From Thermodesulfobacteriota bacterium (GTDB lineage: Bacteria; Desulfobacterota; Syntrophorhabdia; Syntrophorhabdales; JANXAF01), in assembly GCA_025062045.1 (NCBI GenBank), contig JANXAF010000002.1, positions 6,765 to 70,764 of the forward strand: a stretch of DNA of 64,000 nucleotides. Direction: 5' to 3'. The translations under genes and the position numbers were made by a program. A model generated the notes under the pieces. The model ran no database searches. It was not told the DNA's origin and saw only the letters and a list, made by a program, of their open reading frames with translations. How positions within the stretch are numbered: the stretch's first letter is position 1; every line of letters starts with the position of its first letter. Shown in pieces: positions 31,059 through 59,715 of the stretch.

Positions 31059-32222
31059 TTATAATTTTAGGACGAAGAAGCTTGCAAGGGTCACAATTAT
31101 TCCAAGGAGCTTTATTCCCAAAGCAAAAGTGAAGTGATCTCCAAAAAATCCTAAAATATAGGGAATAATCCCTATCCCAAAAGCAGAGGCTATCGAGACA
31201 ACAAATCCCATTGCGAATGCTCTCTTCTCCAAAGGAAAGATCCGAGAACTCAAAACGAAACATAAAGGAAACATCCCAGAGATCAGGGTGGCCTGCAGGA
31301 AAAGAACGTACTGCATGACATCCCAAGAAAAAAACGGGCACGAAAAAGTAAGAATCCCTGAGCTAAAGAGGATAAAAAAGAGTAGTCTTTTTATGTCGAA
31401 AAATTCTAAAAGAAAACCCACCGTAAAAGAAAAGACAAAGGCACCTATCCTTGTGTAACCTAGTATTTTCTGTGCAAGGGAGATTTCGAGCGTAAGTTCC
31501 TTTGAAAGATAAAGGGGCAGTATATAGTAGAGCCCCATGTTCCCGCCGGCTGCGACAACGAGAATGAGACTTATTATCCATAAAGTTCTGTTTCTAACTA
31601 TTTCCGAGAAGATTCTTTTCGTATCCTTCTTTTCAACTTTTATCTCCTCGACCTCCTTTGTGATTAGGTAGAATAAAATACTTGCCAAGGCGAAAACCAC
31701 AGCCAAAATGATGAAAACGCCTCTCCAAGAGGTGTGTTTCAAAAGGTAGTAAGCTATAAAAGGGGCAAGTAAAATACTTGCGGAGGCTGCCGAATCGTGG
31801 ATGGGAATCACCTTTTCCCAAAGGCGTTCATCATAAATCTTGGTGATAAGCGAGATTGAAGATGGTAGATAGATACCAGCTGTGAATCCAAGCCCAAATA
31901 GCAAAGGATATAAAAGAAAGAAGAAGCTATTGAAAGAAAGGAGAGTAAGGAAAAACGCATTGAATATGAAAGAGATAAGTATCGATTTCTTATGGCCTAT
32001 CGCACCTGAGTAAATACCCATTAGAAAAAGGGCAATCCCATTTCCTATCGATATGGAAGCGAAAAGGCCTCCCGCCAAGGTATGCGAGATTTTGAACTCG
32101 TCTTCCAAGATAGGAGCTAGAGGGGCTAAAACTGTTCTACAGGTGAAGATGAGAAACCAAAAAAGCCAAAAAAGTATAAGGTATGCTATTGAGGTGAGAT
32201 CGAATTTCCAAAAGCTTTTCAT
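31059..32222 (-). CDS. MFS transporter
   Basis: It has about 12 TM segments over 387 aa and is divergent from the iorA operon. Confidence 0.8.
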   Translation of the reverse strand: MKSFWKFDLTSIAYLILFWLFWFLIFTCRTVLAPLAPILEDEFKISHTLAGGLFASISIGNGIALFLMGIYSGAIGHKKSILISFIFNAFFLTLLSFNSFFFLLYPLLFGLGFTAGIYLPSSISLITKIYDERLWEKVIPIHDSAASASILLAPFIAYYLLKHTSWRGVFIILAVVFALASILFYLITKEVEEIKVEKKDTKRIFSEIVRNRTLWIISLILVVAAGGNMGLYYILPLYLSKELTLEISLAQKILGYTRIGAFVFSFTVGFLLEFFDIKRLLFFILFSSGILTFSCPFFSWDVMQYVLFLQATLISGMFPLCFVLSSRIFPLEKRAFAMGFVVSIASAFGIGIIPYILGFFGDHFTFALGIKLLGIIVTLASFFVLKL

Positions 32223-32281
32223 TCCTGTTTTAAGACCATGTTCAGACTAACATATGTAAACTTTGCAATTCCAGTTTTTTA

Positions 32282-32337
32282 TTGACAAAAGAGCCCAAGT
32301 TACGTAGAAAGATAATGGGGCTTAGAACAAAGTTCTA
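32282..32337 (+). promoter_or_regulatory. Candidate iorA-operon promoter (TTGACA-N17-TAGAAA) with a perfect 6-3-6 palindrome just downstream
   Basis: TTGACA lies at 32282-32287 and TAGAAA at 32305-32310. The palindrome TAGAAC-AAA-GTTCTA lies at 32323-32337, and a GGGAGG SD precedes the ATG at 32358. Confidence 0.4.
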
Positions 32338-32357
32338 TACACAAAACGGGAGGAAAG

Positions 32358-34178
32358 ATGCGTAGAATCATGCAGGGAAACGAAGCCATAGCAAGGGGCG
32401 CCTACGAGGCAGGGGTTATCGTTGGCTGCGCCTATCCTGGAACCCCAAGTAGCGAGATTTTAGATGCTTTATCTAAGTACGATGGAGTTTATGCGGAATG
32501 GTCGCCCAATGAGAAAGTAGCAATTGAGGTTTGCCACGGAGCTTCGATTGCGGGCGGCCGGGCCATAGCATGCATGAAACACGTTGGACTTAACGTAGCA
32601 TCTGATCCATTCATGACCATCTCCTACACAGGGGTTAAAGGAGGGTTTGTGGTTGTAGTTGCCGACGATCCTGGCCAGCACAGTTCTCAAAACGAGCAGG
32701 ACAGTAGAAACTGGGCTAGGTTTGCAAAAGTGCCAATGCTCGAACCATCCGATGCACAGGAGTGCAAGGATTTCACAAAGCTGGCATTCGATATAAGCGA
32801 GGAGTTCGACACCGTTGTGCTTATAAGGAGTGAGACGAGGGTATCCCATAGTTATTCTTTAGTCGAACTGGGTGAAAGGAATGTTGTAAGACAAGAGTTC
32901 AATTTAAAGAAGGAGGATACGCCGAAGTACACCATGATACCCGCTTTCGCAAGAAAGCGAAGGATAGAGGTCAAAAACCGGATGGAGAGACTGAAAGTTT
33001 ATGCGGATACAACTTTCCCTTTCAACGTTGTCGAGATAAACGATCCCGAAATTGGATTTATAACATCTGGAGTTTCGTATCTCTACACAAAGGAGGTCTT
33101 TCCGGAATATTCTTTTCTTAAGCTTGGTATGGTTTGGCCGCTCCCTTTAAGGCTCATTGAAAATTTTATAAAAAAGGTGAAAAAGGTCATAGTTGTTGAA
33201 GAACTCGATCCTTTCTTGGAGACTGAAATAAAAGCCATGGGATTTAAGGTCTCCCACGGAAAGGATCTACTACCGGAAATAGGGGAGTTCACGCCTGATA
33301 TCATAGAGGAAAGTCTAAGAAGAGTTATAAAAAAGAAAGCCTTAAAAAAACCGAAAGAAAGGCTCGACGTTTCAGATCTGCCGCCTAGACCGCCCAACAT
33401 GTGCGCCGGATGTCCCCACCGTCCTATGTTCTACATTCTCAAAAAACTCGATCTTTTCGTTTTCGGCGATATCGGTTGTTACGGTCTTGGCGCATCTAAA
33501 CCCCTCTCCGCTATGCACATGTCAACATGCATGGGCGCGGGTGTTGGTGGTGCCTATGGCGCAGGAAAGGTACTAAAGGAAGGATGGCTTGGGAAGATAT
33601 GTGCGGTGATTGGCGATTCCACGTTTTTACACTCTGGGATTCCCCCTCTTATGGATGCGGTTTATAACAAGGGTTATTCCACAACGATTATACTTGACAA
33701 TAGAATTACGGCTATGACAGGCCAACAGGAACATCCCGGGACAGGGTACACTATCAGGGGAGAACCTACACATGCCGTTGACTATGAGGCTTTAGTCCGA
33801 GCTCTGGGCGTGAAGCATGTAAGGAAGGTCGATCCGTATAAAATTAAGGAGACGATGGAGACAATAAAGGAAGAGGTTGAAAGAAACGAAGCCTCAGTGA
33901 TAATAACAGTTAACAGTCCGTGCATGCTTTTGAGAAGGGAAAGACCGAAGGAAAGGTTTCTCTATAAATTTTACACCGTTGATGAAAATTTTTGCAGAGG
34001 CTGTAAAGCCTGTCTCGAGCTTGGCTGTCCGGCGTTAAGCTGGAAACCGAATCTCGACAAGAAAAAGGGGGTCGCCTTTATAGTTGAGGATCAATGTGTG
34101 GGATGTAGTGTCTGTGCCCAGGTGTGTAGATTTGAAGCGATAAAACCGGGAATTATAAACACACCGAAAGATGCCTAA
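32358..34178 (+). CDS. iorA: Indolepyruvate/arylpyruvate:ferredoxin oxidoreductase alpha subunit (no adjacent beta subunit)
   Basis: It has the N-terminus QGNEAIARGAYEAGVIVGCAYPGTPSSEI, a TPP-binding region GDIGCY...GDSTFLHSG, and two C-terminal CxxCxxCxxxC motifs. Its length is 606 aa. Confidence 0.85.
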   Translation: MRRIMQGNEAIARGAYEAGVIVGCAYPGTPSSEILDALSKYDGVYAEWSPNEKVAIEVCHGASIAGGRAIACMKHVGLNVASDPFMTISYTGVKGGFVVVVADDPGQHSSQNEQDSRNWARFAKVPMLEPSDAQECKDFTKLAFDISEEFDTVVLIRSETRVSHSYSLVELGERNVVRQEFNLKKEDTPKYTMIPAFARKRRIEVKNRMERLKVYADTTFPFNVVEINDPEIGFITSGVSYLYTKEVFPEYSFLKLGMVWPLPLRLIENFIKKVKKVIVVEELDPFLETEIKAMGFKVSHGKDLLPEIGEFTPDIIEESLRRVIKKKALKKPKERLDVSDLPPRPPNMCAGCPHRPMFYILKKLDLFVFGDIGCYGLGASKPLSAMHMSTCMGAGVGGAYGAGKVLKEGWLGKICAVIGDSTFLHSGIPPLMDAVYNKGYSTTIILDNRITAMTGQQEHPGTGYTIRGEPTHAVDYEALVRALGVKHVRKVDPYKIKETMETIKEEVERNEASVIITVNSPCMLLRRERPKERFLYKFYTVDENFCRGCKACLELGCPALSWKPNLDKKKGVAFIVEDQCVGCSVCAQVCRFEAIKPGIINTPKDA

Positions 34179-34986
34179 AAAAGGATCGTCTCCAGAGTAT
34201 ACACAAACTGTGCCAGCTGTCGACCAAGCACTTAGAATACTATTTTTTATGGCAAAAAGCCCCCATCCAAAGCTCTCTTTAACAGAGATATGTAAGGGTG
34301 TGGGGATCCATAAGAGCAAGGGCTACTCTATTTTGAATACCCTCATAAAATATGGGCTTGTCTCTAAGGATACGGAGGATAAACAGTACACATTAGGTCT
34401 TGGGCTTCTTTCTCTCTCTAGAAAGGTCATTGAGGATTTAGATTTGAGAAAACTTTCTCTTCCATACCTGGAAAAAATAGCAGCTATCACAAAAAAGACA
34501 GCCATTTTTGGAATCATTTTCGGGGAGAACCTCGTTGTTGTTGCAAAAAAAGAAACGGAAAACCCAATAAACGTCACTATAAGGCTTGGCTCCAACTTCC
34601 ATGTGACTTACGGTGCCCACGGAAGGGCAATAGCGGCTTTCCTTGGCGAAAAGGAGCTAAACTCGCTACTTAAAAGAAAGAAAATTTACTTTTTCGGGAG
34701 TCCTTCGAATTTTGACAAAAAAAGGTTCGAAGACGAGTTGCAAAAGTGTAGGCTTAAGGGGTATGCTTGCGATATAGGAGAACTATACCCCGGTATCTCT
34801 GCCATTGCCGTGCCTGTTTTCAGTTCCAAAATGAGCGTGATTGGAGTCTTCATTGTCCTCGGGGCGTACGGCGAAGACAAAGTAGAAGAGTATGGAAAGG
34901 TACTCCTTGAATGTGCAAAAGAGTTCTCATTAAGTCTAGGAGCTGATCCAAAACTCACATACGATAAATACAAAAAAGGAGATTGA
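34171..34986 (+). CDS. IclR-family transcriptional regulator
   Basis: It has an N-terminal wHTH (LSLTEICKGVGIHKSKGYSILNTL) and a C-terminal IclR effector domain. It overlaps the iorA stop by 8 bp. Confidence 0.85.
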   Translation: MPKKGSSPEYTQTVPAVDQALRILFFMAKSPHPKLSLTEICKGVGIHKSKGYSILNTLIKYGLVSKDTEDKQYTLGLGLLSLSRKVIEDLDLRKLSLPYLEKIAAITKKTAIFGIIFGENLVVVAKKETENPINVTIRLGSNFHVTYGAHGRAIAAFLGEKELNSLLKRKKIYFFGSPSNFDKKRFEDELQKCRLKGYACDIGELYPGISAIAVPVFSSKMSVIGVFIVLGAYGEDKVEEYGKVLLECAKEFSLSLGADPKLTYDKYKKGD

Positions 34987-34989
34987 CGC

Positions 34990-37416
34990 ATGGATGAGAA
35001 GGAAATTCAAGCTATTAGAACAACAACTTGGTCGGCCGGACCAGGTTGTCACGGCGGTTGTGGCGTAATCGCGTATGTCAAGGATGGTAGGCTTTTAAAG
35101 ATTGAGGGTGACCCAAGCCACCCCTGGAATCAGGGAAGATTATGTGCGCGTGCTTTGGCTATGAAGCAGTACATCGAGCATCCAAAAAGACTGAGAAAAC
35201 CTCTTCTACGGAAAGGAAAAAGAGGGGAGGGAGTCTGGGAGGAGATATCTTGGGATTTTGCGTTCGACTTCATAGAGGAAAGGATGAAAAAAATTAGAGA
35301 GGAGTCCGGGCCTGAAAGTTTCATATTTGCTATGGGAACGGGCAGGGATATAGGCCCTTGGATCTCAATGCTTGCATATGCATACGGAAGTCCGAATGTC
35401 ATGTTTGCTTTGAGCGGAAACGCTTGTTACAGCCCTAGGATTGCTGCTCTTGATACTTTTCAGGGCGATTACTGTGTTTTTGACGCGGGTCAATGGTTTG
35501 AAAAGAGGTATGACGATCCAAGATTCGTTCTTCCTCAATGCATGATAATTTGGGGTTACAACATTCATGCCACATGTCCCGACAATCTGTTTGGCCATTG
35601 GATAGTAGACATGATGAAGCGAGGCACAAAGATAATAGTTATAGATCCGAGGTTCACCTGGTTTTCATCTAGGGCTGAGATCTGGCTACCTGTAAGACCT
35701 GGTACTGATTCGGCACTGGCTATGGGACTACTCTACGTTATATTAGATGAGGGACTGTTAGATTATGAATTCCTTAAAGAATGGACAAACGCCTCTTTGC
35801 TTTTGAAAAAAGACAAAGATCAGCTCCTTCGTGAAAGCGATATCTATCCGGATGGAAAAAGAGAAAACTTTCTAGTCTGGGATGAAGAGGCTAAAAGGGT
35901 TTCGGTCTGGGATACGGAAGAGCTCTGTTATAGGCCTCAAGCATCAAAAGTGGCAATCTCCTGCGAAATTTCTCTTTTGGATTTAAACGGCAAGGAGATA
36001 AAGTGCCATACCGTATGGGATGCTTTCCAAAAAAGGGTAAAAGAGTACGATCCAAAGACCGTTGAAGGTATAACTGGCGTGCCGGCAAGCGACACAGTGA
36101 GAGCGGCTAGACTCTATGCCAAAAGCAAACCCGCCTCCATCCACTGGGGTGTACCGATAGACATGACTCCAAACGTAACACCCCTTTGTCACGCAATCGC
36201 GTGTCTTTGGGCTTTGACGGGCAATCTTGATGTTCCGGGAGGTAATGTTATTGCAAGATTCGCGTTTGACTGTGTCGCCTATGCTCTGCCCGGTTCGGAA
36301 GGGGTAATAAAACTTAAAACCAAAAAGCAGGATCTATTAAGGATCGGGAGTAATAGGTTCGGCCCTTTTCAGAAATTCATATGGAGATGTCAAACTGATA
36401 GTGCCTTCGAGCAGATATTTACCGGGAAGCCTTATCCAATAAGGGGAATGTGGATCCAGGCTTGTAACCCTCTTGCAGGGATCGGAATGGATCCTAAAAG
36501 GTGGCTTGAAGCATTTTTACGGCTCGATTTTATTGTAGGTGTGGATCTTTTTATGACTCCGACTTTAATGTACGCTGACATAGTTTTGCCTTCCGCAACA
36601 TTTTTAGAAAAAAATGGAATAAGATCATGGTGGGTTCCGCTCCAAAGCATAAATAAAGCGCTAACGATCGATGATTGCAAACCCGACATCGAGATAAACT
36701 TTGAACTGGCGAAAAGATTCGACCCAGAGTTCAAATGGAAGACGGTGGAGGAGCTTTTCGACGATATACTTAAGCCATCGGGACTTACCTATAAAGAACT
36801 TCAAAATAAAGTATGGGTATTTCCCCCCGAGGGTCATCCAAGCCATCCGTATTTTCGTTATAAGAGGGGGCTTTTACGAAAGGACGGAAAGAAAGGATTT
36901 CAAACACCTACTGGCAGATTTGAACTTTACTCTGTCCTCCGTGAAGATTGGGGATACGAGCCATTGCCGCTTCACGAAGAACCCCCTTTTAGCCCTTCAT
37001 CCCAACCGGACCTTGCGAAAGAATATCCTTTGGTCCTTTCTACGGGGAGGAGATCTCCCGTTTATTTCCACAGCGAACATAGAATGATTCCACATCTTCG
37101 CATTTTAGAGCCCGATCCAATTGTGGAGATTCATCCTGAGACCGCAAAAAAGTACGGTATCTCTGATGGAGAATGGGTCTACGTCGAAAACTGGATGGGA
37201 AAAGCGAAATTCAGGGCGAAGGTCACACCAATAGTCCCAAAATGGATGGTTATGGCGACCCATGGCTGGTGGTTCCCTGAAAGAAAGGCTGAAGAGCCTG
37301 AGCTTTTTGGAGTTTGGGAGTCGAATATAAATCTTCTCATCCCAATGGGCTATAACGGAAAGGACGGTCTTGGAGCTCCAATAAAGCATCTACTTTGTAA
37401 AATTTACAGGGCCTAA
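34990..37416 (+). CDS. Cytoplasmic molybdo/tungstopterin oxidoreductase, acetylene-hydratase/transhydroxylase-like branch of the DMSO-reductase family
   Basis: It has no Tat or signal peptide. Its N-terminus is TTTWSAGPGCHGGCGVIAYVKDGRLLKIEGDP, it has MGD-binding segments, and its C-terminal beta-barrel reads EYPLVLSTGRR...DPIVEIHPETAKKYGISDGEWVYVEN. Its length is 808 aa. Confidence 0.85.
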   Translation: MDEKEIQAIRTTTWSAGPGCHGGCGVIAYVKDGRLLKIEGDPSHPWNQGRLCARALAMKQYIEHPKRLRKPLLRKGKRGEGVWEEISWDFAFDFIEERMKKIREESGPESFIFAMGTGRDIGPWISMLAYAYGSPNVMFALSGNACYSPRIAALDTFQGDYCVFDAGQWFEKRYDDPRFVLPQCMIIWGYNIHATCPDNLFGHWIVDMMKRGTKIIVIDPRFTWFSSRAEIWLPVRPGTDSALAMGLLYVILDEGLLDYEFLKEWTNASLLLKKDKDQLLRESDIYPDGKRENFLVWDEEAKRVSVWDTEELCYRPQASKVAISCEISLLDLNGKEIKCHTVWDAFQKRVKEYDPKTVEGITGVPASDTVRAARLYAKSKPASIHWGVPIDMTPNVTPLCHAIACLWALTGNLDVPGGNVIARFAFDCVAYALPGSEGVIKLKTKKQDLLRIGSNRFGPFQKFIWRCQTDSAFEQIFTGKPYPIRGMWIQACNPLAGIGMDPKRWLEAFLRLDFIVGVDLFMTPTLMYADIVLPSATFLEKNGIRSWWVPLQSINKALTIDDCKPDIEINFELAKRFDPEFKWKTVEELFDDILKPSGLTYKELQNKVWVFPPEGHPSHPYFRYKRGLLRKDGKKGFQTPTGRFELYSVLREDWGYEPLPLHEEPPFSPSSQPDLAKEYPLVLSTGRRSPVYFHSEHRMIPHLRILEPDPIVEIHPETAKKYGISDGEWVYVENWMGKAKFRAKVTPIVPKWMVMATHGWWFPERKAEEPELFGVWESNINLLIPMGYNGKDGLGAPIKHLLCKIYRA

Positions 37417-37429
37417 AAAGGAGAGTCCT

Positions 37430-37771
37430 ATGGAAGACAAGGATATATACGGAATCCTTATAGATTACGAGTACTGTACCGGTTGCTACACCTGCGTTGT
37501 GGCCTGCGCTCAGGAATACGGATACGAGCCTGGAGTTTCCGGCATGAGGGTTATGGAAATCGTAGAAAAGCTTCCCAATGAGAAGTATTATCTGGTCTAT
37601 CTTCCCTTTCCCACAGAAGTCTGTACGCTATGTATAGGGAGGGTAAGGAGGGGGCTCGAACCACAGTGTGTGAAGCACTGTATGTCCAGATGTCTGGATT
37701 TTGGACCTTTAGAGAGTCTTATAAAAAAAATGAAGGAGAAGAAAAGGACTGTTCTTTTTAGACCCAGGTAG
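37430..37771 (+). CDS. Mini ferredoxin-type subunit (two predicted [4Fe-4S] clusters) of the molybdopterin enzyme
   Basis: It has CTGCYTCVVAC plus CTLC...CVKHC, which is a DmsB/NrfC-like layout cut down to 113 aa. It has an AGGAG SD and sits 13 bp after the large subunit. Confidence 0.7.
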   Translation: MEDKDIYGILIDYEYCTGCYTCVVACAQEYGYEPGVSGMRVMEIVEKLPNEKYYLVYLPFPTEVCTLCIGRVRRGLEPQCVKHCMSRCLDFGPLESLIKKMKEKKRTVLFRPR

Positions 37772-37783: not shown

Positions 37784-39346
37784 CTAGTTTCGAAGTTTAT
37801 ACCTTACGAGCTTGCCTGTTACCGTTCTAGGAAGCTCTTCCACAAAGGCTATAGATTTGGGAACTTTAAAATGGGCTATTTTTGCCTTTACGTGTTCAAT
37901 AATCTCTCTTTCTAAGTCATCGCTAGGTCTATATCCTTCATTTAAAACGACAAAAGCCTTAATTTTTATGAGACCTTCCTCAGATGGCACCCCTCCTACA
38001 CCACACTCTTTCACCGCTGGATGTTCCATCAGCGCATTTTCTACTTCCAGAGGGGATACCCATTGCCCACTTACTTTTAACATATCGTCTGCTCTTCCCT
38101 GATAGTAGAAGTATCCATCTTCGTCCATGAGAAAGAGGTCCCCGGTATTAAACCATTCACCTTTTATCACCTCTTTATTCTTATCGTGCCTCCTCCAATA
38201 ACCGGGGGTGACCCCATCGTTCTTTATCCATAACGTACCTACACTTCCCTGTTTTACCGGTAAGCCATCATCGCCCCTTAGTTCTCCTTCAAATCCCTGG
38301 ATAATCTTTCCACTCGATCCCGGTTTTCTTTTTCCTTCTTTATTTGCCATGTAGATTCCGCCAACATCGGTACTACCAACTCCGTCTATTATCTCGAGAG
38401 AAAATCTTCTCTCCCATTTTTCGAATATCTCTTTGGGGAGTGGCTCCCCCGCTGAAACACACGCTCTTATCGAAGAGAAGTCACAAAAACCTCTTTTTTC
38501 GACTTGCTTCAAAATAGCATTGTAAAATGTAGGCACACTAAAAAAGATGGAGGGCCTTTTAGTCTCGATAAGCTCTATTATATCTTCTGGTCTCGGCCAT
38601 TTTGGCCAAAGTATGACTGACGCTCCATACAAAAGAGGTATCTCCAAGGAAGCATTTCTCCCGTAAGAGAAGAACATTTTGGATGTGGCAAATATGACGT
38701 CTTTTTCAGTTATGCCCAGTATAAGCTCCGCAAATGGCGGTATATAGTAACATATGTCGTGGTGGAGATGGATAACACCTTTCGGCACCCCTGTAGTTCC
38801 AGAAGTATACATCCAGAATGCCATGTCGTCTTTGGATGTGGTTTCAACTTGAAGCTCGGATGAGCCTTTTGATATAAGCTCAGAATAGTTTATGGTTCCT
38901 TTTTCGGATCCTCCGACTATTATTACGTGTTTTAGGGAGGGCACCTCTTTTTTTATTTCACGGATTTTTTCGTAATGTTCAAAATTAACAAAAAGGGCTT
39001 TTGATCTCGAATCGGAGGCGAAGAAAACGTAATCTTTCGGCTGGGCGAGCGTGTTCACAGGACAAGGGACGGCTCCTATCTTCATCGATGCAAGATAGGC
39101 AGTTATGAATTCGGGGGAATCGTTAAGAATGATGAGGATCCTATCTTCGGGTTCTATCCCTAAATTTTTTAGGCTGTTTCCGAGTCTATTAACGGACAGA
39201 TAAAGATCAGCGTAGGTTATTCCTTGATCTCCATAGTAGATAGCGACATTTCCTCCCCTTTCTTCCCTTATATGCCTTTCGAGGAGTAGATCAACCTGGT
39301 TAAAAAAATCTGGAACTTTGTAGTCCAGAAGGGAGATGCGCCCCAT
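37784..39346 (-). CDS. Aromatic acid-CoA ligase of the benzoate/4-hydroxybenzoate-CoA ligase family
   Basis: It has the AMP-binding motif YTSGTTGVPKG and the terminal PRTVTGKL. The N-terminal block ILNDSPEFITAYLASMKIGAVPCPVNTLAQPKDYVFFASDSRSKALFV resembles benzoate-CoA ligases. Confidence 0.8.
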   Translation of the reverse strand: MGRISLLDYKVPDFFNQVDLLLERHIREERGGNVAIYYGDQGITYADLYLSVNRLGNSLKNLGIEPEDRILIILNDSPEFITAYLASMKIGAVPCPVNTLAQPKDYVFFASDSRSKALFVNFEHYEKIREIKKEVPSLKHVIIVGGSEKGTINYSELISKGSSELQVETTSKDDMAFWMYTSGTTGVPKGVIHLHHDICYYIPPFAELILGITEKDVIFATSKMFFSYGRNASLEIPLLYGASVILWPKWPRPEDIIELIETKRPSIFFSVPTFYNAILKQVEKRGFCDFSSIRACVSAGEPLPKEIFEKWERRFSLEIIDGVGSTDVGGIYMANKEGKRKPGSSGKIIQGFEGELRGDDGLPVKQGSVGTLWIKNDGVTPGYWRRHDKNKEVIKGEWFNTGDLFLMDEDGYFYYQGRADDMLKVSGQWVSPLEVENALMEHPAVKECGVGGVPSEEGLIKIKAFVVLNEGYRPSDDLEREIIEHVKAKIAHFKVPKSIAFVEELPRTVTGKLVRYKLRN

Positions 39347-39350
39347 CTTT

Positions 39351-40652
39351 TCACTTCACAAACGACGGAAGGAAAGTTGCAATTGGTGGGTAAAAAAGGA
39401 GTATTATAGAAGCAACAATCATGGCTATAAGGAACGGGAATATGCCTTTGAATATCTGCTCTAGTGGAACATCCTTGGCAATTCCCTTTATCACATAGAC
39501 ATTAACCCCGACGGGCGGGGTAACGACACCCATGCATGTGACAAGCACGATTATAACCCCAAACCATATGGGATCATATCCTAAATTAAGAACAATAGGA
39601 TAAAGGATAGGGATCGTAAGAATGATAAGCGGAATAGCGTCTATGAAACATCCACCCACAAGGTATATGGCGATTATGACAAGCATAATGACAAAGGGCG
39701 GGACCTCAAGGGATGAAACCCAGTTAGATATAAGGAGAGGCAACTTAGAAATAGTTACAAATTTTCCAAAAACAGTGGCACAGGCAATTATCGTAAGGAT
39801 CATACAAGAGGTCCTTAGGGCTTCCCTCGTATTTTGCACAAAGGAATCCCATGTAACCTCTCTTCTTAGAAGACCAAGTACTAAAGCACCAGCTGCTCCT
39901 ATTCCTCCTGCCTGAGTGGGTGTAAAAAAACCAAAAAGGAGTCCACCAACGACAAGAATAAAAAGGCCCACAGCATCCATGATCCTAAGACAGGCTATGA
40001 CCTTTTCTTTTAGCGTTGATCTTTCTCCCTTCGGCCCGTATGTAGGGTTTTTGTAGCATATTATTATTACAGCTACGCTCATAAGGATTGCGAGGAGAAT
40101 ACCTGGCAATATACCAGAGATAAAAAGCTTGCCGATGGACTGTTCCGTCATGAATCCGTAAATCAAAAATATTACGCTTGGCGGTATTAGTATTCCCAAA
40201 CTTCCCGCAGCTGCAATGCAGCCCGTTGCAAGCGTATCGTTATATCCATACTTTTTCATAGCGGGAAGTGCAAGCTTTCCCATAGTAGCAGCTGTGGCAG
40301 TAGAAGACCCACAAATAGCCCCAAAGGCAGCACACGCAAATATTGAGGCGATAGCTAACCCACCCCTTATGTGGCCAAATACTTTGTAGGCCGCATCGTA
40401 AAGCCTCGAACCAAGTCCTGCAGAAAAAGCATAGTAACCCATGAGGATGAACATCGGAATGGCACTAATAGAGTAAGATGTGAGCTGCTCAAAGATGTTT
40501 CTGGGGAGAATGGCAAGACCTGTTTTTAATGATGTTACATAGGAAAAACCCAGAAATCCTACAAACGCCATTGAGAAAGCAATAGGCATCCTTATTACAA
40601 AAAATAAAACAAGGACCCCTATTCCGATTATACCTACCGTTTCTGGGCTCAT
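39351..40652 (-). CDS. dctM: TRAP transporter large permease
   Basis: It is a 433-aa polytopic DctM-like protein and overlaps dctQ by 4 bp. Confidence 0.9.
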   Translation of the reverse strand: MSPETVGIIGIGVLVLFFVIRMPIAFSMAFVGFLGFSYVTSLKTGLAILPRNIFEQLTSYSISAIPMFILMGYYAFSAGLGSRLYDAAYKVFGHIRGGLAIASIFACAAFGAICGSSTATAATMGKLALPAMKKYGYNDTLATGCIAAAGSLGILIPPSVIFLIYGFMTEQSIGKLFISGILPGILLAILMSVAVIIICYKNPTYGPKGERSTLKEKVIACLRIMDAVGLFILVVGGLLFGFFTPTQAGGIGAAGALVLGLLRREVTWDSFVQNTREALRTSCMILTIIACATVFGKFVTISKLPLLISNWVSSLEVPPFVIMLVIIAIYLVGGCFIDAIPLIILTIPILYPIVLNLGYDPIWFGVIIVLVTCMGVVTPPVGVNVYVIKGIAKDVPLEQIFKGIFPFLIAMIVASIILLFYPPIATFLPSFVK

Positions 40653-41131
40653 CTCTTCATCCTCACATTTTTTACAACTTCTAAAAGGTAGAAGAGAATG
40701 ACCGGGATTGTACTTAAAGCAAAGGCGTAAGCAAATGGGTATAATGGCAATTTAGATACTGATCCAATCTCACCGGAAAGCTGAAGAGATCTCGCATACT
40801 TAAGACCGTAGACTAGGAGGACCAAAAAGAGGATAAGACAGCAAAAAGAGACAAAGATATCCAAAATTTTCTTTACATAAAAAGGCAACTTTTCAGAGAT
40901 AAATTCGATCTTTAAGTGGGTTCCTATGAAAAGGCCAAAGGCGATCGCAAAAGCTATCGCCACTACCTGGGCAAAGCTTATTATCTCTAATGCCCCTGGC
41001 AGGGGCCATCTAAAGAATTTAGCGCCCACAACGTCGACTAAATTTGCAAAAAACATGATAAGGAAGAAGATGGCCCCTATGCCCTCCATGTATCTGCTTA
41101 CCCGTCTCGTTAGCTTCTCTAACGTTCCCAT
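40649..41131 (-). CDS. dctQ: TRAP transporter small permease
   Basis: It is 160 aa with four TM segments and lies between dctP and dctM. Confidence 0.8.
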   Translation of the reverse strand: MGTLEKLTRRVSRYMEGIGAIFFLIMFFANLVDVVGAKFFRWPLPGALEIISFAQVVAIAFAIAFGLFIGTHLKIEFISEKLPFYVKKILDIFVSFCCLILFLVLLVYGLKYARSLQLSGEIGSVSKLPLYPFAYAFALSTIPVILFYLLEVVKNVRMKR

Positions 41132-41138
41132 CAGTGCA

Positions 41139-42212
41139 CTACTTTATCCTTACGTCGTCTGGACCAGTCGTTGACTTTATCTTAAGCTCCCTTTGCTTTT
41201 TCAACCAGTAGTCAATCCTTTCCTTCACAAAGGAGATCCATCCCCTCACATCCCTCTCGGAATAACCAGCGGCCACCATTGATTTTATGTACTTGTCAAT
41301 CACCGTTTCGGCAGCCTTTATCCATCTTTTTTCCTCTTCAGGGGAGAGAGTGATAAACTGGATCCCTTTCTCCATACCTAGCTGTTTTCCATCGATGTCT
41401 ATTTCATTCCACATTGTAGCCAGCTTTTCCTGGAATGGATATTCGTTAAAGACTTTCTTTACGTCGTCAGGAAGTTTTCTCCACGTATCCTTATTCATGA
41501 CGATATAGAAGTTATACTGCTGTCCGATGCCCCAACACTCCGTCGTGTATTTTATGACCTCTGCAAATCTGAAGGCTCTGAATGTCTCCATAGGGATATA
41601 AACTCCATCTACTACCCTTTTTAGTATCGCATCGTACGTCTCCGGAGCGGCAACGCCCCTCGGTGTTGCACCTAAAGCAGAAACGACATCGGCTATGTAA
41701 CCCATCGCCCTGATATTAAGCCCCTTCAAATCCTCGAGCTTATAGACTGGTTTTGTCGCAACCATCATTACGTTTATAGGAGAACTGTGGAGAGTGAGAA
41801 CATGTACATCATCCCATTCCTTAGGTCTAAATCTTTTGAAGAAATCGTTGACCACGTGGTTCGACACCCAAGCATTTGGAAAACCGAGTGGCATATCGAG
41901 GACTTCTGTGACCTTAAATCTGCCAGGTGTGTAAGCGATGTGAGAGAATCCTATATCCGCTATACCCTGGACAACCCCATCATACATCTTGGCTGGGCTA
42001 AGAAGCGTACCTGCGGGGAAATAGCTGAATTTCACCTTCCCCCCTGTTCTTGCCTCGATGTCCTTTATGAACTCTTCACAAATCTTCGACTGCCTCGCAA
42101 CCACAGGGAAGTAGTTGGCCCATTTGAGCTCGATTGCCGGTGCACAGAGAACAGAATCCGCAAGGAAAAGAAACATTAAACCAACGAGCAGAGCATAAGA
42201 AAGTTTCCTCAT
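41139..42212 (-). CDS. dctP: TRAP transporter periplasmic solute-binding protein (DctP family)
   Basis: It has a signal peptide and DctP-like sequence, an AGGAGG SD, and is the first gene of the dctPQM-ligase operon. Confidence 0.85.
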   Translation of the reverse strand: MRKLSYALLVGLMFLFLADSVLCAPAIELKWANYFPVVARQSKICEEFIKDIEARTGGKVKFSYFPAGTLLSPAKMYDGVVQGIADIGFSHIAYTPGRFKVTEVLDMPLGFPNAWVSNHVVNDFFKRFRPKEWDDVHVLTLHSSPINVMMVATKPVYKLEDLKGLNIRAMGYIADVVSALGATPRGVAAPETYDAILKRVVDGVYIPMETFRAFRFAEVIKYTTECWGIGQQYNFYIVMNKDTWRKLPDDVKKVFNEYPFQEKLATMWNEIDIDGKQLGMEKGIQFITLSPEEEKRWIKAAETVIDKYIKSMVAAGYSERDVRGWISFVKERIDYWLKKQRELKIKSTTGPDDVRIK

Positions 42213-44849: not shown

Positions 44850-45629
44850 TCAGGTTGCCCTTTCCAGAGCGATTAAGGCGGCGCCTAAGGCCCCAACTAT
44901 CTGAGGTTCAAAGTAGACTTTAATTTCCACGCCTAGGGCAGATTCAAGGGCCTTAACAACACCGATGTTTTTTGCAACCCCTCCTGTCATTACCACCTCT
45001 TTTTCAATGCCACCTAGCCTATTTATTAGACCCAGCGTTCTATCGGCGATGGCCTTGTGTATCCCGTAAAGGATATCTTCCAGCTCCTCTCCTTCGCTTA
45101 AGAGGGAGATCACCTCTGATTCCGCAAAGACTGTACATATGCTACTTATGCTTATCTCTTTTTTGTGCTTAAGCGATATACCACCAATTTTGTCTATGTC
45201 CACATTCAGAGCATGGGCCATGACTTCGAGAAACCTTCCCGTACCTGCCGCACATTTATCGTTCATTTCGAATTCAACAACCCTTCCCTTATTATCTATC
45301 CTTATTACCTTTGTGTCCTGACCACCTATGTCTATCACTGTTTTGGCGTCGGGGAAAAGGTAGTTGGCGCCCCTCGCGATACAGGTTATCTCTGTCACTG
45401 TATCATTGGCAAAAGTTGCTCTTTTCCTTCCGCAACCTGTTGCAATTATGTAGGATAAGTCCTCCATGCTCTTTTTAGGGTACGCCAACACCTTTTCGAG
45501 TGCTTCTTCCGCCGTCTTTTTTGAGTCTGCACCGGTTTGCATTATCGTGTAGTTCACTATGCCTTTTTCCTTTTCAAAAAGGAGTGCTTCGGTCGTAATC
45601 GAACCTATATCTAGACCAGCAACCAGCAT
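44850..45629 (-). CDS. BadF/BadG/BcrA/BcrD-type ATPase: 2-hydroxyacyl-CoA dehydratase-type activase (HgdC-like)
   Basis: It has the acetate/sugar-kinase fold start GLDIGSITTE, the cluster-bridging Cys motifs NDKCAAGTG and ICTVFAESE, and is 259 aa. Confidence 0.88.
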   Translation of the reverse strand: MLVAGLDIGSITTEALLFEKEKGIVNYTIMQTGADSKKTAEEALEKVLAYPKKSMEDLSYIIATGCGRKRATFANDTVTEITCIARGANYLFPDAKTVIDIGGQDTKVIRIDNKGRVVEFEMNDKCAAGTGRFLEVMAHALNVDIDKIGGISLKHKKEISISSICTVFAESEVISLLSEGEELEDILYGIHKAIADRTLGLINRLGGIEKEVVMTGGVAKNIGVVKALESALGVEIKVYFEPQIVGALGAALIALERAT

Positions 45630-45644
45630 GCCATTGCCTCTTCT

Positions 45645-45860
45645 TCACTCGATGACAGCAAGAACCGAATCCGCTTCCACATCGTCGCCGGGTTTTACCC
45701 TGATCTCCTTTATCGTGCCAGAGCAGGGTGCGACAATAGGCATTTCCATCTTCATCGCTTCTAAGACAGCGATTTCGTCGTTCTCATTTACCTTGTCCCC
45801 AACATTTACTAGAACTTTAACAATCTTTCCAACCATTGGTACGGTAACCTCTGTCGCCAT
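45645..45860 (-). CDS. Stand-alone biotinyl (biotin carboxyl carrier) domain protein, 71 aa
   Basis: It has the biotinylation motif EAMKME in a minimal biotinyl/lipoyl beta-barrel. I place the start at Met20 of the ORF-track protein because an AAGGAGG SD precedes it. Confidence 0.8.
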   Translation of the reverse strand: MATEVTVPMVGKIVKVLVNVGDKVNENDEIAVLEAMKMEMPIVAPCSGTIKEIRVKPGDDVEADSVLAVIE

Positions 45861-45882
45861 AACTACCTCCTTGACACTTAAC

Positions 45883-47040: not shown

Positions 47041-47085
47041 CTCATTCACTCCTTTCTTTCTGGTTTGTGAAACTGTTAACAACCT

Positions 47086-51695: not shown

Positions 51696-52138
51696 AGGAT
51701 CTTTTCGATTACATTCTTTAAGTCCTCGGCCTTTATCCCCACGTAAACTTCACCATCCACTTCTATTTCTGGCCCAAGAGCGCATCTCCCAGAGCAAGAC
51801 GATGTTTCAAGCTTAAATTTCATATCGAGAGTCGTCTCCCCTTCCTCAATTCCTAGCAAGTTTTTTAGTTCCTCCAGTATCTTTTTGCCTCCCCGGAAGC
51901 AGCAAGAAGAACCCATGCATACCTTAACGGTGTGGTCAGCACGCGGTATTAAACTAAAGGCTTTATAGAAACTCGCCATTCGGAATATCTCGCCCGGTGG
52001 CAAAGATAGTTTTTCGCCAAGATAGAAGACGGACTCCCTAGGAATGTAACCTTTCTCATGCTGGATGTCTATTAGCATCTCTACGAGGTAATTTCGTTTA
52101 CCGTTATACTTGGCAATTATTCTATCTAGCCACTCCAT
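51692..52138 (-). CDS. bamG: BamG-like subunit (NuoE-like thioredoxin-fold [2Fe-2S] protein)
   Basis: It has CMGSSCC...CSGRCALGP spacing typical of NuoE/HoxE and is 148 aa. Confidence 0.85.
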   Translation of the reverse strand: MEWLDRIIAKYNGKRNYLVEMLIDIQHEKGYIPRESVFYLGEKLSLPPGEIFRMASFYKAFSLIPRADHTVKVCMGSSCCFRGGKKILEELKNLLGIEEGETTLDMKFKLETSSCSGRCALGPEIEVDGEVYVGIKAEDLKNVIEKIL

Positions 52139-52890: not shown

Positions 52891-52898
52891 CTTCCCTC

Positions 52899-56009: not shown

Positions 56010-56025
56010 CTTTCTTCCCCTTCTT

Positions 56026-57177: not shown

Positions 57178-57180
57178 TGG

Positions 57181-57726: not shown

Positions 57727-57746
57727 CTTTTTGCGCTCCTTTGGCC

Positions 57747-59711: not shown

Positions 59712-59715
59712 GCTT

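What the first reader, a model, noticed from the sequence alone, without database searches (positions are those of the whole stretch)
32282..37771. Unassigned operon: orphan iorA, iclR, cytoplasmic acetylene-hydratase/transhydroxylase-like Mo/W enzyme and a 113-aa two-cluster ferredoxin
Four translationally coupled genes follow one promoter. IorA normally needs IorB, and no beta subunit is present nearby. The 808-aa pterin enzyme lacks a Tat signal. Its N-terminal cluster motif is degenerate (GPGCHGGC...C, with the first Cys of CxxCxxxC missing). Its partner is a DmsB/NrfC-type subunit reduced to about two [4Fe-4S] clusters. The combination of a 2-oxoacid:ferredoxin-oxidoreductase-like protein, a Mo enzyme and a neighbouring CoA ligase recalls anaerobic arylacetate alpha-oxidation. 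That known route uses phenylacetyl-CoA:acceptor oxidoreductase plus phenylglyoxylate oxidoreductase. The version here would be soluble and much smaller. It could feed benzoyl-CoA to the bam locus 12 kb away. This link is a hypothesis, and the substrate cannot be read from the sequence.
Basis: inference. Interest (0 to 1): 0.65.

Follow-up and report, generated by a model that had tools for sequence, protein, structure and literature searches.

The report
Soluble aryl dehydroxylase cassette with orphan iorA
The four genes are real and recur together elsewhere; the molybdenum/tungsten enzyme and its small iron-sulfur partner belong to the same clade as the cytoplasmic catechol dehydroxylases of the gut bacterium Gordonibacter, here in a hot-spring bacterium's aromatic-acid uptake island and joined to an IorB-less 2-oxoacid oxidoreductase subunit.

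Summary
iorA (no iorB), iclR, an 808-aa Tat-less Mo/W-bisPGD enzyme and a 113-aa two-cluster ferredoxin are packed head to tail behind one promoter-like site.

The interpretation needs revising. The large subunit is closest to the two-subunit cytoplasmic "Gordonibacter-type" catechol dehydroxylases Cldh and Dodh (38-47% identity), not to a PadB-like or transhydroxylase-like enzyme. A 100%-bootstrap NJ clade excludes acetylene hydratase. The odd GPGCHxGC motif and the SGxxCYxPR ligand motif are signatures of that clade.

The large and small subunits form an invariant pair in every complete locus, across at least ten phyla including Bathyarchaeia (59-82% identity), mostly with no conserved neighbours.

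The four-gene cassette recurs in three further contigs, two of them with different flanks. It carries a conserved 16-bp palindrome that is probably the IclR operator. Its IorAs form their own clade and never have iorB. Several close relatives have lost iorA.

A sister clade carries NuoEF-like genes after the pair, and Dehalococcoidales carry a flavodoxin beside it.

Best reading: a reductive dehydroxylase for a hydroxylated aromatic acid, with IorA as a dedicated electron-input or 2-oxoacid-processing module. Substrate, metal and the IorA link are all untested.

The parts
31059..32222 (-). MFS transporter (387 aa), transcribed divergently from the cassette
   Evidence: PF07690 MFS_1, E 2.7e-42. 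There are weak NCBIfam hits to aromatic acid/H+ symporters. The gene is conserved next to the Mo enzyme in L001, L002, L048, L053 and Desulfonema magnum L043. An adjacent MFS transporter is described as a trait of Gordonibacter-type dehydroxylase loci (PMC7028382).
32282..32310 (+). Promoter-like site: TTGACA, 17-nt spacer, TAGAAA
   Evidence: Read directly from the sequence. The TTGACA is conserved at the same relative place in L001, L048, L049 and L050. The consensus scanner did not call it. Its function is inferred only.
32323..32347 (+). Probable IclR operator: overlapping GTTCT/AGAAC half-sites (TAGAACAAAGTTCTATACACAAAAC)
   Evidence: The 16-mer GTTCTRTATACARAAC matches the window with 1 mismatch. 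It matches exactly, once each, upstream of the cassette in L001, L045, L048, L049 and L050, and nowhere else in 52 loci. In L048 it is a perfect palindrome, GTTCTGTATACAGAAC. Binding by IclR is inferred.
32358..34178 (+). iorA: indolepyruvate/arylpyruvate:ferredoxin oxidoreductase alpha subunit (606 aa), with no iorB
   Evidence: TIGR03336, 703.7 bits, above the cutoff. It has POR_N, TPP_enzyme_C and a 2x[4Fe-4S] ferredoxin domain. It keeps the GDS...N TPP-binding motif. The four cassette-linked IorAs all keep 303 of the 365 columns that are at least 90% conserved in 116 other IorAs. The four cassette-linked IorAs form a clade of exactly 4 among the 120 nearest homologues. The nearest canonical IorAs (about 72% identity) have IorB (PF01558) immediately downstream. 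Here iclR occupies that position.
34171..34986 (+). IclR-family transcriptional regulator (271 aa)
   Evidence: PF01614 and PF09339. It matches the PcaR/PcaU/PobR-type subfamily below cutoff. It is only 27% identical to the second IclR, at the bam locus. An IclR also lies directly upstream of the Mo enzyme in L001, L045, L048, L049 and L050; in Desulfonema magnum L043 an MFS gene lies between them.
34990..37416 (+). Catalytic subunit (808 aa): cytoplasmic Mo/W-bisPGD enzyme of the Gordonibacter-type dehydroxylase clade
   Evidence: Domain architecture. BLAST scores: Dodh 533 bits (38% over the full length); Cldh 264+333 bits (47% and 40%); acetylene hydratase 110+186 bits (about 31%); Dadh 115+199 bits. 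The NJ clade with Cldh and Dodh has 100% bootstrap. Cys146 aligns with the W-ligand Cys141 of acetylene hydratase, and His21 aligns with its Asp13. A clade-specific, beta-rich insertion spans roughly residues 267-342 and is modelled with high confidence.
37430..37771 (+). Small electron-transfer subunit (113 aa), 2x[4Fe-4S]
   Evidence: Fer4_11. It corresponds to the first and last cluster motifs of DmsB/NrfC-type proteins. Eight Cys are invariant. A homologue lies right next to the large-subunit gene in every locus where the adjacent DNA is present.
37784..39346 (-). Benzoate-type aryl-carboxylate CoA ligase (520 aa), convergent with the cassette
   Evidence: TIGR02262, 492.8 bits against a cutoff of 375. 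The next best model is 3-hydroxybenzoate-CoA ligase HbdA, at 399 bits, far below its own cutoff. The best solved relatives are anthranilate-CoA ligase 4wv3 and benzoate-CoA ligase 2v7b. It is conserved next to the pair only in the window's close relatives L001, L002, L048 and L053.
39351..42212 (-). TRAP transporter DctM (39351-40652), DctQ (40649-41131) and DctP (41139-42212), upstream of the ligase in the same transcriptional direction
   Evidence: Pfam DctM, DctQ and DctP. It is conserved with the island in L001, L002 and L053. The solute-binding protein is most similar to PDB entries 4n6d, 4pgn and 4nap.

Best explanation
The core is a two-subunit soluble redox enzyme. An 808-aa Mo- or W-bisPGD catalytic subunit has Cys146 as the likely metal ligand and a three-Cys FS0 site. 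A 113-aa 2x[4Fe-4S] subunit accompanies it. The enzyme belongs to the same clade as the Gordonibacter-type catechol dehydroxylases.

The most likely chemistry is reductive removal of a ring hydroxyl from a hydroxylated (probably catecholic) aromatic acid in the cytoplasm. Electrons would enter through the small subunit.

In this hot-spring deltaproteobacterium the pair sits in an aromatic-acid island. An MFS and a TRAP transporter would bring the acid in. A benzoate-type ligase would activate the dehydroxylated product, which could then go to the class II benzoyl-CoA reductase (bam) genes 12 kb away.

An IclR regulator would control the promoter through a conserved GTTCT/AGAAC palindrome.

The IorB-less IorA, co-inherited with the pair in one subclade, most likely serves as a dedicated low-potential electron-input module. 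It would oxidise a 2-oxoacid and pass electrons from its ferredoxin domain to the small subunit. Alternatively it processes an arylpyruvate precursor.

Shown here: the gene anatomy, clade membership, the invariant pairing, the recurrence of the cassette and the motif conservation.

Inferred: the reaction, the substrate class, the metal, operator binding, the role of IorA and the link to bam.
For: **Clade membership**
- 100% bootstrap for a clade with Cldh and Dodh that excludes acetylene hydratase and Dadh.
- Identity of 38-47% to Cldh and Dodh, about the same as those two share with each other (45%). Identity to acetylene hydratase is about 31%.
- Shared RTxxW(S/T)x(G/A)PGCHxGC and SGxxCYxPR motifs.

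**Anatomy**
- It matches the published description of the Gordonibacter type: no TAT signal, about 770-800 aa, a small 4Fe-4S partner, no membrane anchor, and an adjacent MFS transporter (PMC7028382; PMC11585353; bioRxiv 10.1101/2025.01.17.632430).
- A Desulfobacula toluolica member of the 808-aa clade is already in that paper's family tree.

**A redox role**
- The two-cluster partner is invariant.
- Different electron-input genes lie beside the pair in different lineages. A sister clade of 9-10 loci has NuoE-like, NuoF-like and 2Fe-2S/4Fe-4S proteins. Dehalococcoidales have a flavodoxin. Here it is IorA.

**Linkage of IorA**
- iorA-iclR-Mo-FeS recurs in L048, L049 and L050; L049 and L050 have unrelated flanks.
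- The IorA and Mo-enzyme trees agree: (window, L048) and (L049, L050).
- IorA keeps its catalytic motifs.

**Precedent and context**
- 2-oxoacid oxidation is reported to drive Gordonibacter dehydroxylation, via H2 (bioRxiv 10.64898/2026.04.18.719167).
- Aromatic context: a benzoate-type ligase, TRAP and MFS transporters, an IclR and the bam genes.
Against: - No activity, substrate or expression data exist for any member of the 808-aa clade. No RNA runs were found.
- Outside the window's close relatives the pair has no conserved metabolic neighbours. The aromatic-acid context is therefore lineage-specific.
- The eLife authors themselves caution that uncharacterised clades of the family cannot be assigned activities.
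- The clade carries a roughly 75-aa insertion that Cldh, Dodh and acetylene hydratase lack.
- iorA is absent from relatives at 75-81% identity: L001, L002, L053 and L045. It is therefore not essential.
- IorA lacks the IorB/domain-III subunit that canonical enzymes have. It retains nearly all conserved residues, so an IorB supplied in trans and an ordinary IOR role cannot be excluded.
- The trees are NJ only.
Confidence: 0.5

Rival explanations
1. IorA is not an electron donor but a pathway enzyme. The island would degrade a catecholic aromatic amino-acid derivative. An arylpyruvate such as 3,4-dihydroxyphenylpyruvate would be oxidatively decarboxylated by IorA, with IorB supplied in trans or without CoA. 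The resulting catecholic arylacetate would then be dehydroxylated by the Mo enzyme, as Dodh does with DOPAC.
For: - IorA is a full equivalog-level IOR alpha subunit with intact motifs.
- Dodh, a characterised relative, acts on an arylacetate, DOPAC.
- In L003 a class I/II aminotransferase lies directly after the Mo-FeS pair.
- The TRAP binding protein resembles PDB 4pgn and 4nap. From memory, and unverified here, those were solved with indolepyruvate and tryptophan.
Against: - The adjacent ligase is benzoate-type, not phenylacetate-type.
- iorA is missing from close relatives that keep the rest of the island.
- The aminotransferase neighbour occurs in only one locus.
- No iorB lies in the window or on any cassette contig.
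Confidence: 0.2
2. The operon is a compact soluble version of anaerobic arylacetate alpha-oxidation. The Mo enzyme would oxidise arylacetyl-CoA as PadBCD does, and IorA would oxidise the resulting arylglyoxylate to benzoyl-CoA.
For: - A 2-oxoacid oxidoreductase subunit, a Mo enzyme and a CoA ligase lie together near bam genes.
Against: - The Mo enzyme nests within reductive dehydroxylases.
- The conserved pair occurs across many phyla with no IorA, no ligase and no aromatic-CoA genes.
- From established knowledge, PadBCD is a membrane-bound three-subunit enzyme. Here there is no anchor and only two clusters.
- The ligase is benzoate-type.
- IorA lacks the subunit that canonical IORs carry and that, from general knowledge of this enzyme family, takes part in CoA binding.
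- Lineages with NuoEF-like or flavodoxin neighbours point to electron input, not output.
Confidence: 0.05
3. The Mo/W enzyme reduces or transforms a non-aromatic small molecule that is common in anoxic habitats. It could be an acetylene-hydratase-like hydration or the reduction of some oxidised small molecule. The aromatic neighbours in this genome would be coincidental.
For: - In most of the 34 loci holding an 808-aa-clade member the pair sits among housekeeping or unrelated genes.
- Very high conservation (59-82%) across bacteria and archaea suggests a single ubiquitous substrate.
- Acetylene hydratase is the closest solved structure.
Against: - The Asp13 of acetylene hydratase (its catalytic residue, from the literature) is His here, and the first FS0 Cys is missing.
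- A dedicated electron-transfer subunit is invariant, which a hydratase would not need.
- All characterised members of the enclosing clade act on aromatic hydroxyls.
- Regulators and transporters typical of aromatic acids (IclR, MarR, AraC/GyrI-like, MFS) recur next to the pair.
Confidence: 0.2
4. iorA is a passenger. It was inserted between the promoter and iclR, is co-transcribed by accident, and works with an IorB encoded elsewhere in ordinary aromatic amino-acid metabolism.
For: - Gene content at this junction varies among relatives that share the same synteny. Window and L048 have iorA plus iclR. L001 has iclR only, with the promoter and operator retained. L002 and L053 have neither.
- IorA is barely diverged from canonical IorAs. 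Only 7 conserved columns are changed in at least 3 of the 4 orphans.
Against: - The same gene order, with overlapping or abutting genes, persists at 71-82% protein identity in four contigs with three different sets of flanks.
- The orphan IorAs are monophyletic and their tree matches that of the Mo enzyme.
- iorB is absent from every cassette contig.
Confidence: 0.2

Closest known systems
Gordonibacter-type catechol dehydroxylases (Cldh, Dodh, Gp Hcdh, Eadh1/2) of the DMSO reductase superfamily
   Same: - Same clade, with 100% bootstrap, and 38-47% identity.
- No TAT signal and a similar size.
- A small 4Fe-4S partner gene and no membrane anchor.
- An adjacent MFS transporter.
- A substrate-type regulator next door.
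- The same GPGCHxGC three-Cys FS0 motif and the same SGxxCYxPR motif.
   Different: - It forms a separate, environmental 808-aa subclade with a roughly 75-residue beta-rich insertion.
- It is spread over Thermodesulfobacteriota, Chloroflexota, Actinomycetota, Acidobacteriota and Bathyarchaeia rather than gut Coriobacteriia.
- No substrate is known.
- The regulator is an IclR.
- In one subclade it is coupled to an IorB-less iorA, and in this genome to a CoA ligase, a TRAP transporter and nearby bam genes.
Acetylene hydratase of Pelobacter acetylenicus (PDB 2e7z)
   Same: - Closest solved structure by sequence (E 1.2e-75).
- Best TM-score and rmsd among the Foldseek hits (0.72/0.80 and 4.7 A).
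- Cytoplasmic.
- The metal-ligand Cys is conserved (Cys141 aligns with Cys146).
   Different: - Only about 31% identical.
- Acetylene hydratase has four FS0 cysteines and Asp13. Here Gly17 and His21 take the places of Cys9 and Asp13.
- Acetylene hydratase is a non-redox monomer (established knowledge). Here a two-cluster electron-transfer subunit is invariant.
Eggerthella-type catechol dehydroxylases (Dadh, Cadh, Hcdh)
   Same: The same superfamily and the same presumed chemistry, reductive removal of an aromatic hydroxyl.
   Different: - These enzymes carry a TAT signal, are 1000-1200 aa long, and have a four-cluster subunit plus a membrane anchor.
- Identity is about 29%, and they fall outside the 100% clade.
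Indolepyruvate:ferredoxin oxidoreductase IorAB
   Same: IorA is an equivalog-level alpha subunit with TPP-binding and ferredoxin domains. It is about 72% identical to canonical IorAs.
   Different: Canonical iorA is followed at once by iorB (PF01558). In the four cassettes iclR takes that place, and no iorB is found on any of the contigs.
4-Hydroxybenzoyl-CoA reductase (HcrABC/HbaBCD)
   Same: A reductive aromatic dehydroxylase that feeds the benzoyl-CoA pathway and is driven by low-potential ferredoxin (established knowledge; cited).
   Different: [quoted passage not shown] It acts on a CoA thioester. Here the wider clade has no CoA ligase nearby.
Phenylacetyl-CoA:acceptor oxidoreductase PadBCD and pyrogallol-phloroglucinol transhydroxylase
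   Same: Mo-bisPGD enzymes of anaerobic aromatic metabolism.
   Different: - The transhydroxylase is not detected by sequence at E<=1e-3 and is not in the top 50 structural matches.
- PadBCD is membrane-bound with three subunits (established knowledge).
- No PadB sequence was available, so it was not placed in a tree.

Membership tests
Gordonibacter-type (two-subunit, cytoplasmic) catechol dehydroxylases | Catalytic subunit with the MopB architecture (Fe4S4 domain, molybdopterin domain, dinucleotide-binding domain) | tested here: met
   PF04879, PF00384 and PF01568 are all above their cutoffs.
Gordonibacter-type (two-subunit, cytoplasmic) catechol dehydroxylases | No twin-arginine signal; about 770-800 aa | tested here: met
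   The N-terminus is MDEKEIQAIRTTTW..., with no RR motif and no upstream in-frame start. The protein is 808 aa.
Gordonibacter-type (two-subunit, cytoplasmic) catechol dehydroxylases | An adjacent gene for a small 4Fe-4S protein, and no membrane-anchor gene | tested here: met
   The 113-aa protein has 8 invariant Cys and lies 13 nt downstream. It is 39-48% identical to the partners of the Eggerthellaceae and Sporomusa homologues. The cassette contains no anchor gene.
Gordonibacter-type (two-subunit, cytoplasmic) catechol dehydroxylases | Phylogenetic placement with Cldh and Dodh, to the exclusion of acetylene hydratase and the Eggerthella type | tested here: met
   NJ tree of 42 sequences and 725 columns with 100 bootstraps. 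The clade of window, Cldh and Dodh has 100% support, and the window's own 808-aa subclade also has 100%. The method is NJ only, with no ML tree.
Gordonibacter-type (two-subunit, cytoplasmic) catechol dehydroxylases | Shared sequence signatures (three-Cys GPGCHxGC site; SGxxCYxPR around the presumed metal ligand) | tested here: met
   Alignments with the published Cldh and Dodh sequences. I propose these signatures here; they are not a published definition.
Gordonibacter-type (two-subunit, cytoplasmic) catechol dehydroxylases | Catalyses Mo-dependent reductive removal of a catechol hydroxyl | not testable with these tools
   This needs enzyme assays. No member of the 808-aa subclade has been characterised.
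Acetylene hydratase | Four-Cys [4Fe-4S] site (Cys9, 12, 16, 46) and catalytic Asp13 next to Cys12 | tested here: not met
   Gly17 aligns with Cys9 and His21 aligns with Asp13.
Acetylene hydratase | Stand-alone monomer with no electron-transfer partner | tested here: not met
   The small FeS gene is present in every locus where the adjacent DNA is held.
Acetylene hydratase | Cys ligand to the metal (Cys141) | tested here: met
   Cys146 aligns with Cys141. It is conserved in 73 of 75 sequences, and the other two have gaps.
Indolepyruvate:ferredoxin oxidoreductase (IorAB) | Alpha subunit that matches the equivalog model | tested here: met
   TIGR03336, 703.7 bits against a cutoff of 650.9.
Indolepyruvate:ferredoxin oxidoreductase (IorAB) | Beta subunit (PF01558) encoded with it | tested here: not met
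   None is found in the window or in L048-L050. Canonical neighbours have one. The rest of the genome could not be searched.
PadBCD phenylacetyl-CoA:acceptor oxidoreductase | Three subunits with a membrane anchor and a four-cluster FeS subunit | tested here: not met
   There are only two clusters and no anchor gene. The definition of the family comes from established knowledge.
PadBCD phenylacetyl-CoA:acceptor oxidoreductase | Sequence relationship of the large subunit to PadB | not tested
Pyrogallol-phloroglucinol transhydroxylase | Sequence or fold closest to the transhydroxylase large subunit | tested here: not met
   It is absent from the PDB sequence hits at E<=1e-3 and from the 50 Foldseek matches listed.

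The most novel reading that the evidence does not exclude
An IorB-less IorA docks onto the two-cluster subunit. It would turn the dehydroxylase into a self-contained, soluble '2-oxoacid:aryl-hydroxyl oxidoreductase'.

The 808-aa clade would then be the long-missing dehydroxylase that lets obligate anaerobes and Bathyarchaeia channel protocatechuate-like, lignin-derived acids into the benzoyl-CoA pathway. Its electron-input modules would be interchangeable between lineages: IorA, NuoEF-like proteins or flavodoxin.
Probability: 0.2. Interest if true: 0.75.

Novelty: new variant of a known kind. Interest (0 to 1): 0.55.

Why it matters
Catechol dehydroxylases have so far been studied as gut-microbiome enzymes. 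Their environmental relatives are noted in the literature but uncharacterised.

This locus places one such relative inside an uptake and activation island next to class II benzoyl-CoA reductase genes. That makes it a concrete candidate for the unidentified reductive dehydroxylation steps of anaerobic (di)hydroxybenzoate degradation in obligate anaerobes.

The clade is highly conserved across many phyla and reaches the archaea. A single assay could therefore annotate thousands of genes now labelled 'molybdopterin oxidoreductase' or 'dimethylsulfide dehydrogenase'.

The recurrent iorA-without-iorB cassette raises two testable questions. What feeds electrons to the soluble dehydroxylases? Can an IOR alpha subunit work without its beta subunit?

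Tried and rejected
1. Expression data. No RNA runs hold the locus. Only hot-spring DNA metagenomes do.
2. Conserved neighbours. Pfam scanning of 116 neighbour ORFs from 25 loci of the 808-aa clade found no enriched family; the most frequent occurred 5 times in 116. Ten further neighbours were unrelated.
3. Literature. Searches for 3-hydroxybenzoyl-CoA or protocatechuyl-CoA dehydroxylases, for catechol dehydroxylases linked to benzoyl-CoA, and for Desulfobacula proteomics gave nothing on this clade.
4. TRAP ligands. I tried to verify the ligands of PDB 4pgn, 4nap and 4n6d, but the paper is not held. That lead rests on memory only.
5. Structure prediction. The model is moderate (pLDDT 73) and no coordinates are returned. 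The fourth FS0 ligand could not be identified. The conserved Cys803 (71 of 75) could not be tested as a candidate.
6. iorA remnant. I looked for one in relatives that lack the gene and found none. L001 nevertheless keeps the promoter and operator, followed by about 830 bp with no recognisable gene.
7. iorB elsewhere in the genome.
8. The operator-like motif. Weak 3-mismatch matches inside the CoA ligase gene and near the bam locus are no better than chance.
9. Transhydroxylase and Psr/Phs/formate-type assignments were rejected on similarity and on the tree.

Full report
**1. The observation**

- iorA, 32358-34178, is a full-length IOR alpha subunit. It scores 703.7 bits on TIGR03336 against a cutoff of 650.9, and has POR_N, TPP_enzyme_C and a dicluster ferredoxin domain.
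- iclR, 34171-34986, overlaps iorA by 8 nt.
- The Mo/W enzyme, 34990-37416, starts 3 nt after iclR.
- The 113-aa ferredoxin, 37430-37771, starts 13 nt later. Both of the last two genes sit behind AAAGGAG ribosome-binding sites.

The coordinate 32282 is the first base of a TTGACA hexamer, followed after 17 nt by TAGAAA. The consensus scanner did not report it.

The large subunit has no Tat motif and no possible N-terminal extension. Only three of the four usual FS0 cysteines are present. The small subunit has eight invariant cysteines, enough for two [4Fe-4S] clusters.

No IorB domain occurs in any of the window ORFs of 150 aa or more that were scanned. tblastn with two genuine IorBs finds nothing in the window.

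On the other strand the cassette meets a benzoate-type CoA ligase and a TRAP transporter. An MFS transporter is transcribed divergently from the promoter region. A bamB-I-like cluster with its own IclR lies at 49417-60492.

**2. What the Mo/W enzyme is**

By sequence, the best solved relative is acetylene hydratase (E 1.2e-75). A formate dehydrogenase and thiosulfate/polysulfide reductase come next. An AlphaFold model (pLDDT 73, pTM 0.76) also gives acetylene hydratase the best TM-score and rmsd. Perchlorate reductase has a similar E-value, and the transhydroxylase is not among the top 50.

The literature led further. Rekdal et al. (eLife 2020, PMC7028382) describe catechol dehydroxylases whose nearest characterised relative is acetylene hydratase. 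They distinguish a Gordonibacter type. It has no TAT signal, is smaller, has an adjacent small 4Fe-4S protein and an adjacent MFS transporter, and is presumably soluble. Later papers confirm the two-subunit composition.

The paper's alignment file gave me the Cldh and Dodh sequences, and those of acetylene hydratase and Dadh.

| Comparator | BLAST bits against the window protein | Identity |
|---|---|---|
| Dodh | 533 | 38% over the full length |
| Cldh | 264 + 333 | 47% and 40% |
| Acetylene hydratase | 110 + 186 | about 31% |
| Dadh | 115 + 199 | about 29% |
| A Psr-like enzyme | 121 | 23% |

For scale, Cldh and Dodh are 45% identical to each other and 24-26% identical to acetylene hydratase.

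A neighbour-joining tree with 100 bootstraps puts the window protein in a 32-member clade with Cldh and Dodh at 100% support. Acetylene hydratase and Dadh fall outside it.

The motif that looked degenerate, RTTTWSAGPGCHGGC, is shared with Cldh (RTTMWSGPGCHEGC) and Dodh (RTSVWTGPGCHNGC). The segment around Cys146, SGNACYSPR, is shared in the same way. In the alignment:
- Gly17 takes the place of acetylene hydratase Cys9.
- His21 takes the place of its Asp13, the catalytic residue according to the literature.
- Cys146 aligns with its tungsten ligand, Cys141.

**3. Distribution**

The window protein belongs to a tight 808-aa subclade with 100% bootstrap support. It is marked by an insertion of about 75 residues that is modelled as a confident beta-rich domain.

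Members share 59-82% identity. They occur in metagenome-assembled genomes labelled Deltaproteobacteria/Thermodesulfobacteriota, Dehalococcoidia, Anaerolineae, Chloroflexia, Actinomycetes, Thermoleophilia, Acidobacteriota, Ignavibacteria and Bathyarchaeia, and in Desulfonema magnum. A Desulfobacula toluolica member is already in the eLife tree, uncharacterised.

The small ferredoxin gene lies next to the large-subunit gene in every locus where the adjacent DNA is held.

Beyond that, the neighbours vary:
- IclR and MFS in Desulfonema.
- An AraC/GyrI-like regulator and a flavodoxin in Dehalococcoidales.
- IclR alone, or a LysE exporter, among housekeeping genes.
- No enriched Pfam family among 116 neighbour ORFs.

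A sister clade of about 731 aa occurs in Sporomusa, Desulfitobacterium, Syntrophomonas and Geopsychrobacteraceae. There the pair is followed by NuoE-like, NuoF-like and 2Fe-2S/4Fe-4S proteins and a sigma-54 activator.

**4. The iorA question**

None of the 42 loci from the species-representative genome collection had iorA next to the enzyme, including the closest two.

However, matching contig lengths between the two homologue lists exposed three metagenomic contigs with the same iorA-iclR-Mo-FeS order.
- L048 has the same flanks as the window.
- L049 has an enoyl-CoA hydratase upstream.
- L050 has a GntR regulator upstream and FeoB downstream.

The four linked IorAs form a clade of exactly four among the 120 nearest IorAs. 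Their branching matches that of the Mo enzymes.

Canonical IorAs at about 72% identity have IorB directly downstream. In the cassette, iclR sits in that position, and no iorB is on any cassette contig. The orphan IorAs keep the TPP motif, the ferredoxin cysteines and 303 of 365 conserved columns.

Relatives in the identical chromosomal position have lost iorA. L001 keeps iclR, the promoter and the operator. L002 and L053 have lost both iorA and iclR. L045 has iclR and the operator but no iorA.

The simplest history is one gain of iorA and at least three losses. iorA is therefore co-inherited but dispensable.

**5. Regulation**

A palindrome, GTTCTRTATACARAAC, lies just downstream of the promoter-like site.
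- It matches the window with one mismatch.
- It matches exactly, once each, in L001, L045, L048, L049 and L050.
- It occurs nowhere else in the 52 loci.
- In L048 it is a perfect palindrome.

It travels with iclR whether or not iorA is present, so it is the likely IclR operator. This is an inference.

**6. Mechanism**

Shown here: clade membership, the invariant two-cluster partner, the lineage-specific electron-carrier genes beside the pair, and the aromatic-acid transport and activation genes around it in this lineage.

Inferred: the enzyme reductively removes a hydroxyl from a hydroxylated aromatic acid. Electrons pass through the small subunit. IorA supplies them by oxidising a 2-oxoacid, or else makes the substrate from an arylpyruvate. 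The product is activated by the benzoate-type ligase and enters the bam pathway.

A 2026 preprint reports that pyruvate oxidation, acting through hydrogen, drives dehydroxylation in Gordonibacter. That is a precedent for 2-oxoacid-derived electrons.

Weak hints towards hydroxycinnamate- or amino-acid-derived substrates are feruloyl-esterase-like genes near two loci and an aminotransferase in one.

**7.

The arylacetate alpha-oxidation idea is not supported.
- The enzyme nests among reductive dehydroxylases.
- The ligase is benzoate-type.
- The conserved unit occurs widely without IorA or CoA genes.

The Mo-FeS pair is a new, uncharacterised member of a known family. The IorB-less iorA cassette with its operator is a variant I found no description of.

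The source is a hot-spring community, and no transcript data exist. Substrate, metal and the role of IorA all remain to be tested.

Noticed in passing
window 49417-60492 (- strand): A class II benzoyl-CoA reductase-like cluster.
- AFOR/BamB-like, 57747-59711.
- Fer4/BamC-like, 57181-57759.
- CCG/BamD-like, 56026-57177.
- A 1036-aa BamE-like flavo-FeS protein, 52899-56009.
- FlpD/BamF-like, 52126-52764.
- A fused NuoE/NuoF-like protein of 555 aa, 50028-51695.
- A 2Fe-2S/4Fe-4S protein, 49417-50028.
- Its own IclR, 59716-60492, only 27% identical to the cassette IclR.
   Followed up: partly
window 32222-34990 compared with L001, L002, L048, L053: The junction between the MFS gene and the Mo enzyme gene is a hotspot of gene-content change among relatives that share the same synteny. 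Window and L048 have iorA plus iclR. L001 has iclR only; it keeps the promoter and operator, followed by about 830 bp with no recognisable gene. L002 and L053 have neither.
   Followed up: yes
L030-L038, L042 (e.g. L031 12229-18012): A sister clade of about 731 aa, 40-49% identical, occurs in Sporomusa, Desulfitobacterium, Syntrophomonas and Geopsychrobacteraceae. The Mo-FeS pair is followed by NuoE-like, NuoF-like and 2Fe-2S/4Fe-4S proteins and a PAS/sigma-54 activator. This looks like an NAD(P)H-linked version of the same enzyme.
   Followed up: partly
L003 12811-16418; L013 2847-5006: In two loci the 808-aa enzyme and its ferredoxin are followed by a second, roughly 40%-identical paralogue of the large subunit. 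In L003 a class I/II aminotransferase lies between them and a MarR regulator lies upstream.
   Followed up: no
L019 8504-9673; L046 15571-16442: Feruloyl-esterase-like (BD-FAE/COesterase) genes lie beside the pair in an Acidobacteriota locus and a Dehalococcoidales locus. This is a weak hint towards hydroxycinnamate-derived substrates.
   Followed up: no
window 44850-47082 (- strand): A BcrAD/BadFG-family ATPase (259 aa) lies next to an acyl-CoA dehydrogenase (399 aa), between the island and the bam genes. The ATPase is also present at the same place in L053.
   Followed up: no
window 60549-62895 (- strand): A 581-aa DUF362 protein and a 186-aa protein with no Pfam match lie directly upstream of the bam-associated iclR.
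   Followed up: no
window 41139-42212: The TRAP solute-binding protein is most similar to PDB 4n6d, 4pgn and 4nap, which come from Desulfovibrio. From memory, 4pgn and 4nap were solved with indolepyruvate and tryptophan. That would fit an arylpyruvate theme, but I could not verify it.
   Followed up: partly
window 34990-37416, residue Cys803: A C-terminal cysteine in the motif LLCKIYRA is conserved in 71 of 75 family members, though it is Ala in Cldh and in acetylene hydratase. Whether it supplies the missing fourth ligand of the N-terminal cluster could not be tested.
   Followed up: partly
window 1-64000: Near-identical sequence is found only in hot-spring metagenomes. The rest of the window is housekeeping:
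- An H+-pyrophosphatase, cut by the window start.
- An F-type ATP synthase operon, 1981-6830.
- Ribosomal proteins S6, S18 and L9, and DnaB, just upstream of the island.
- A 406-aa ORF at 16565-17785 with no Pfam match.
   Followed up: no
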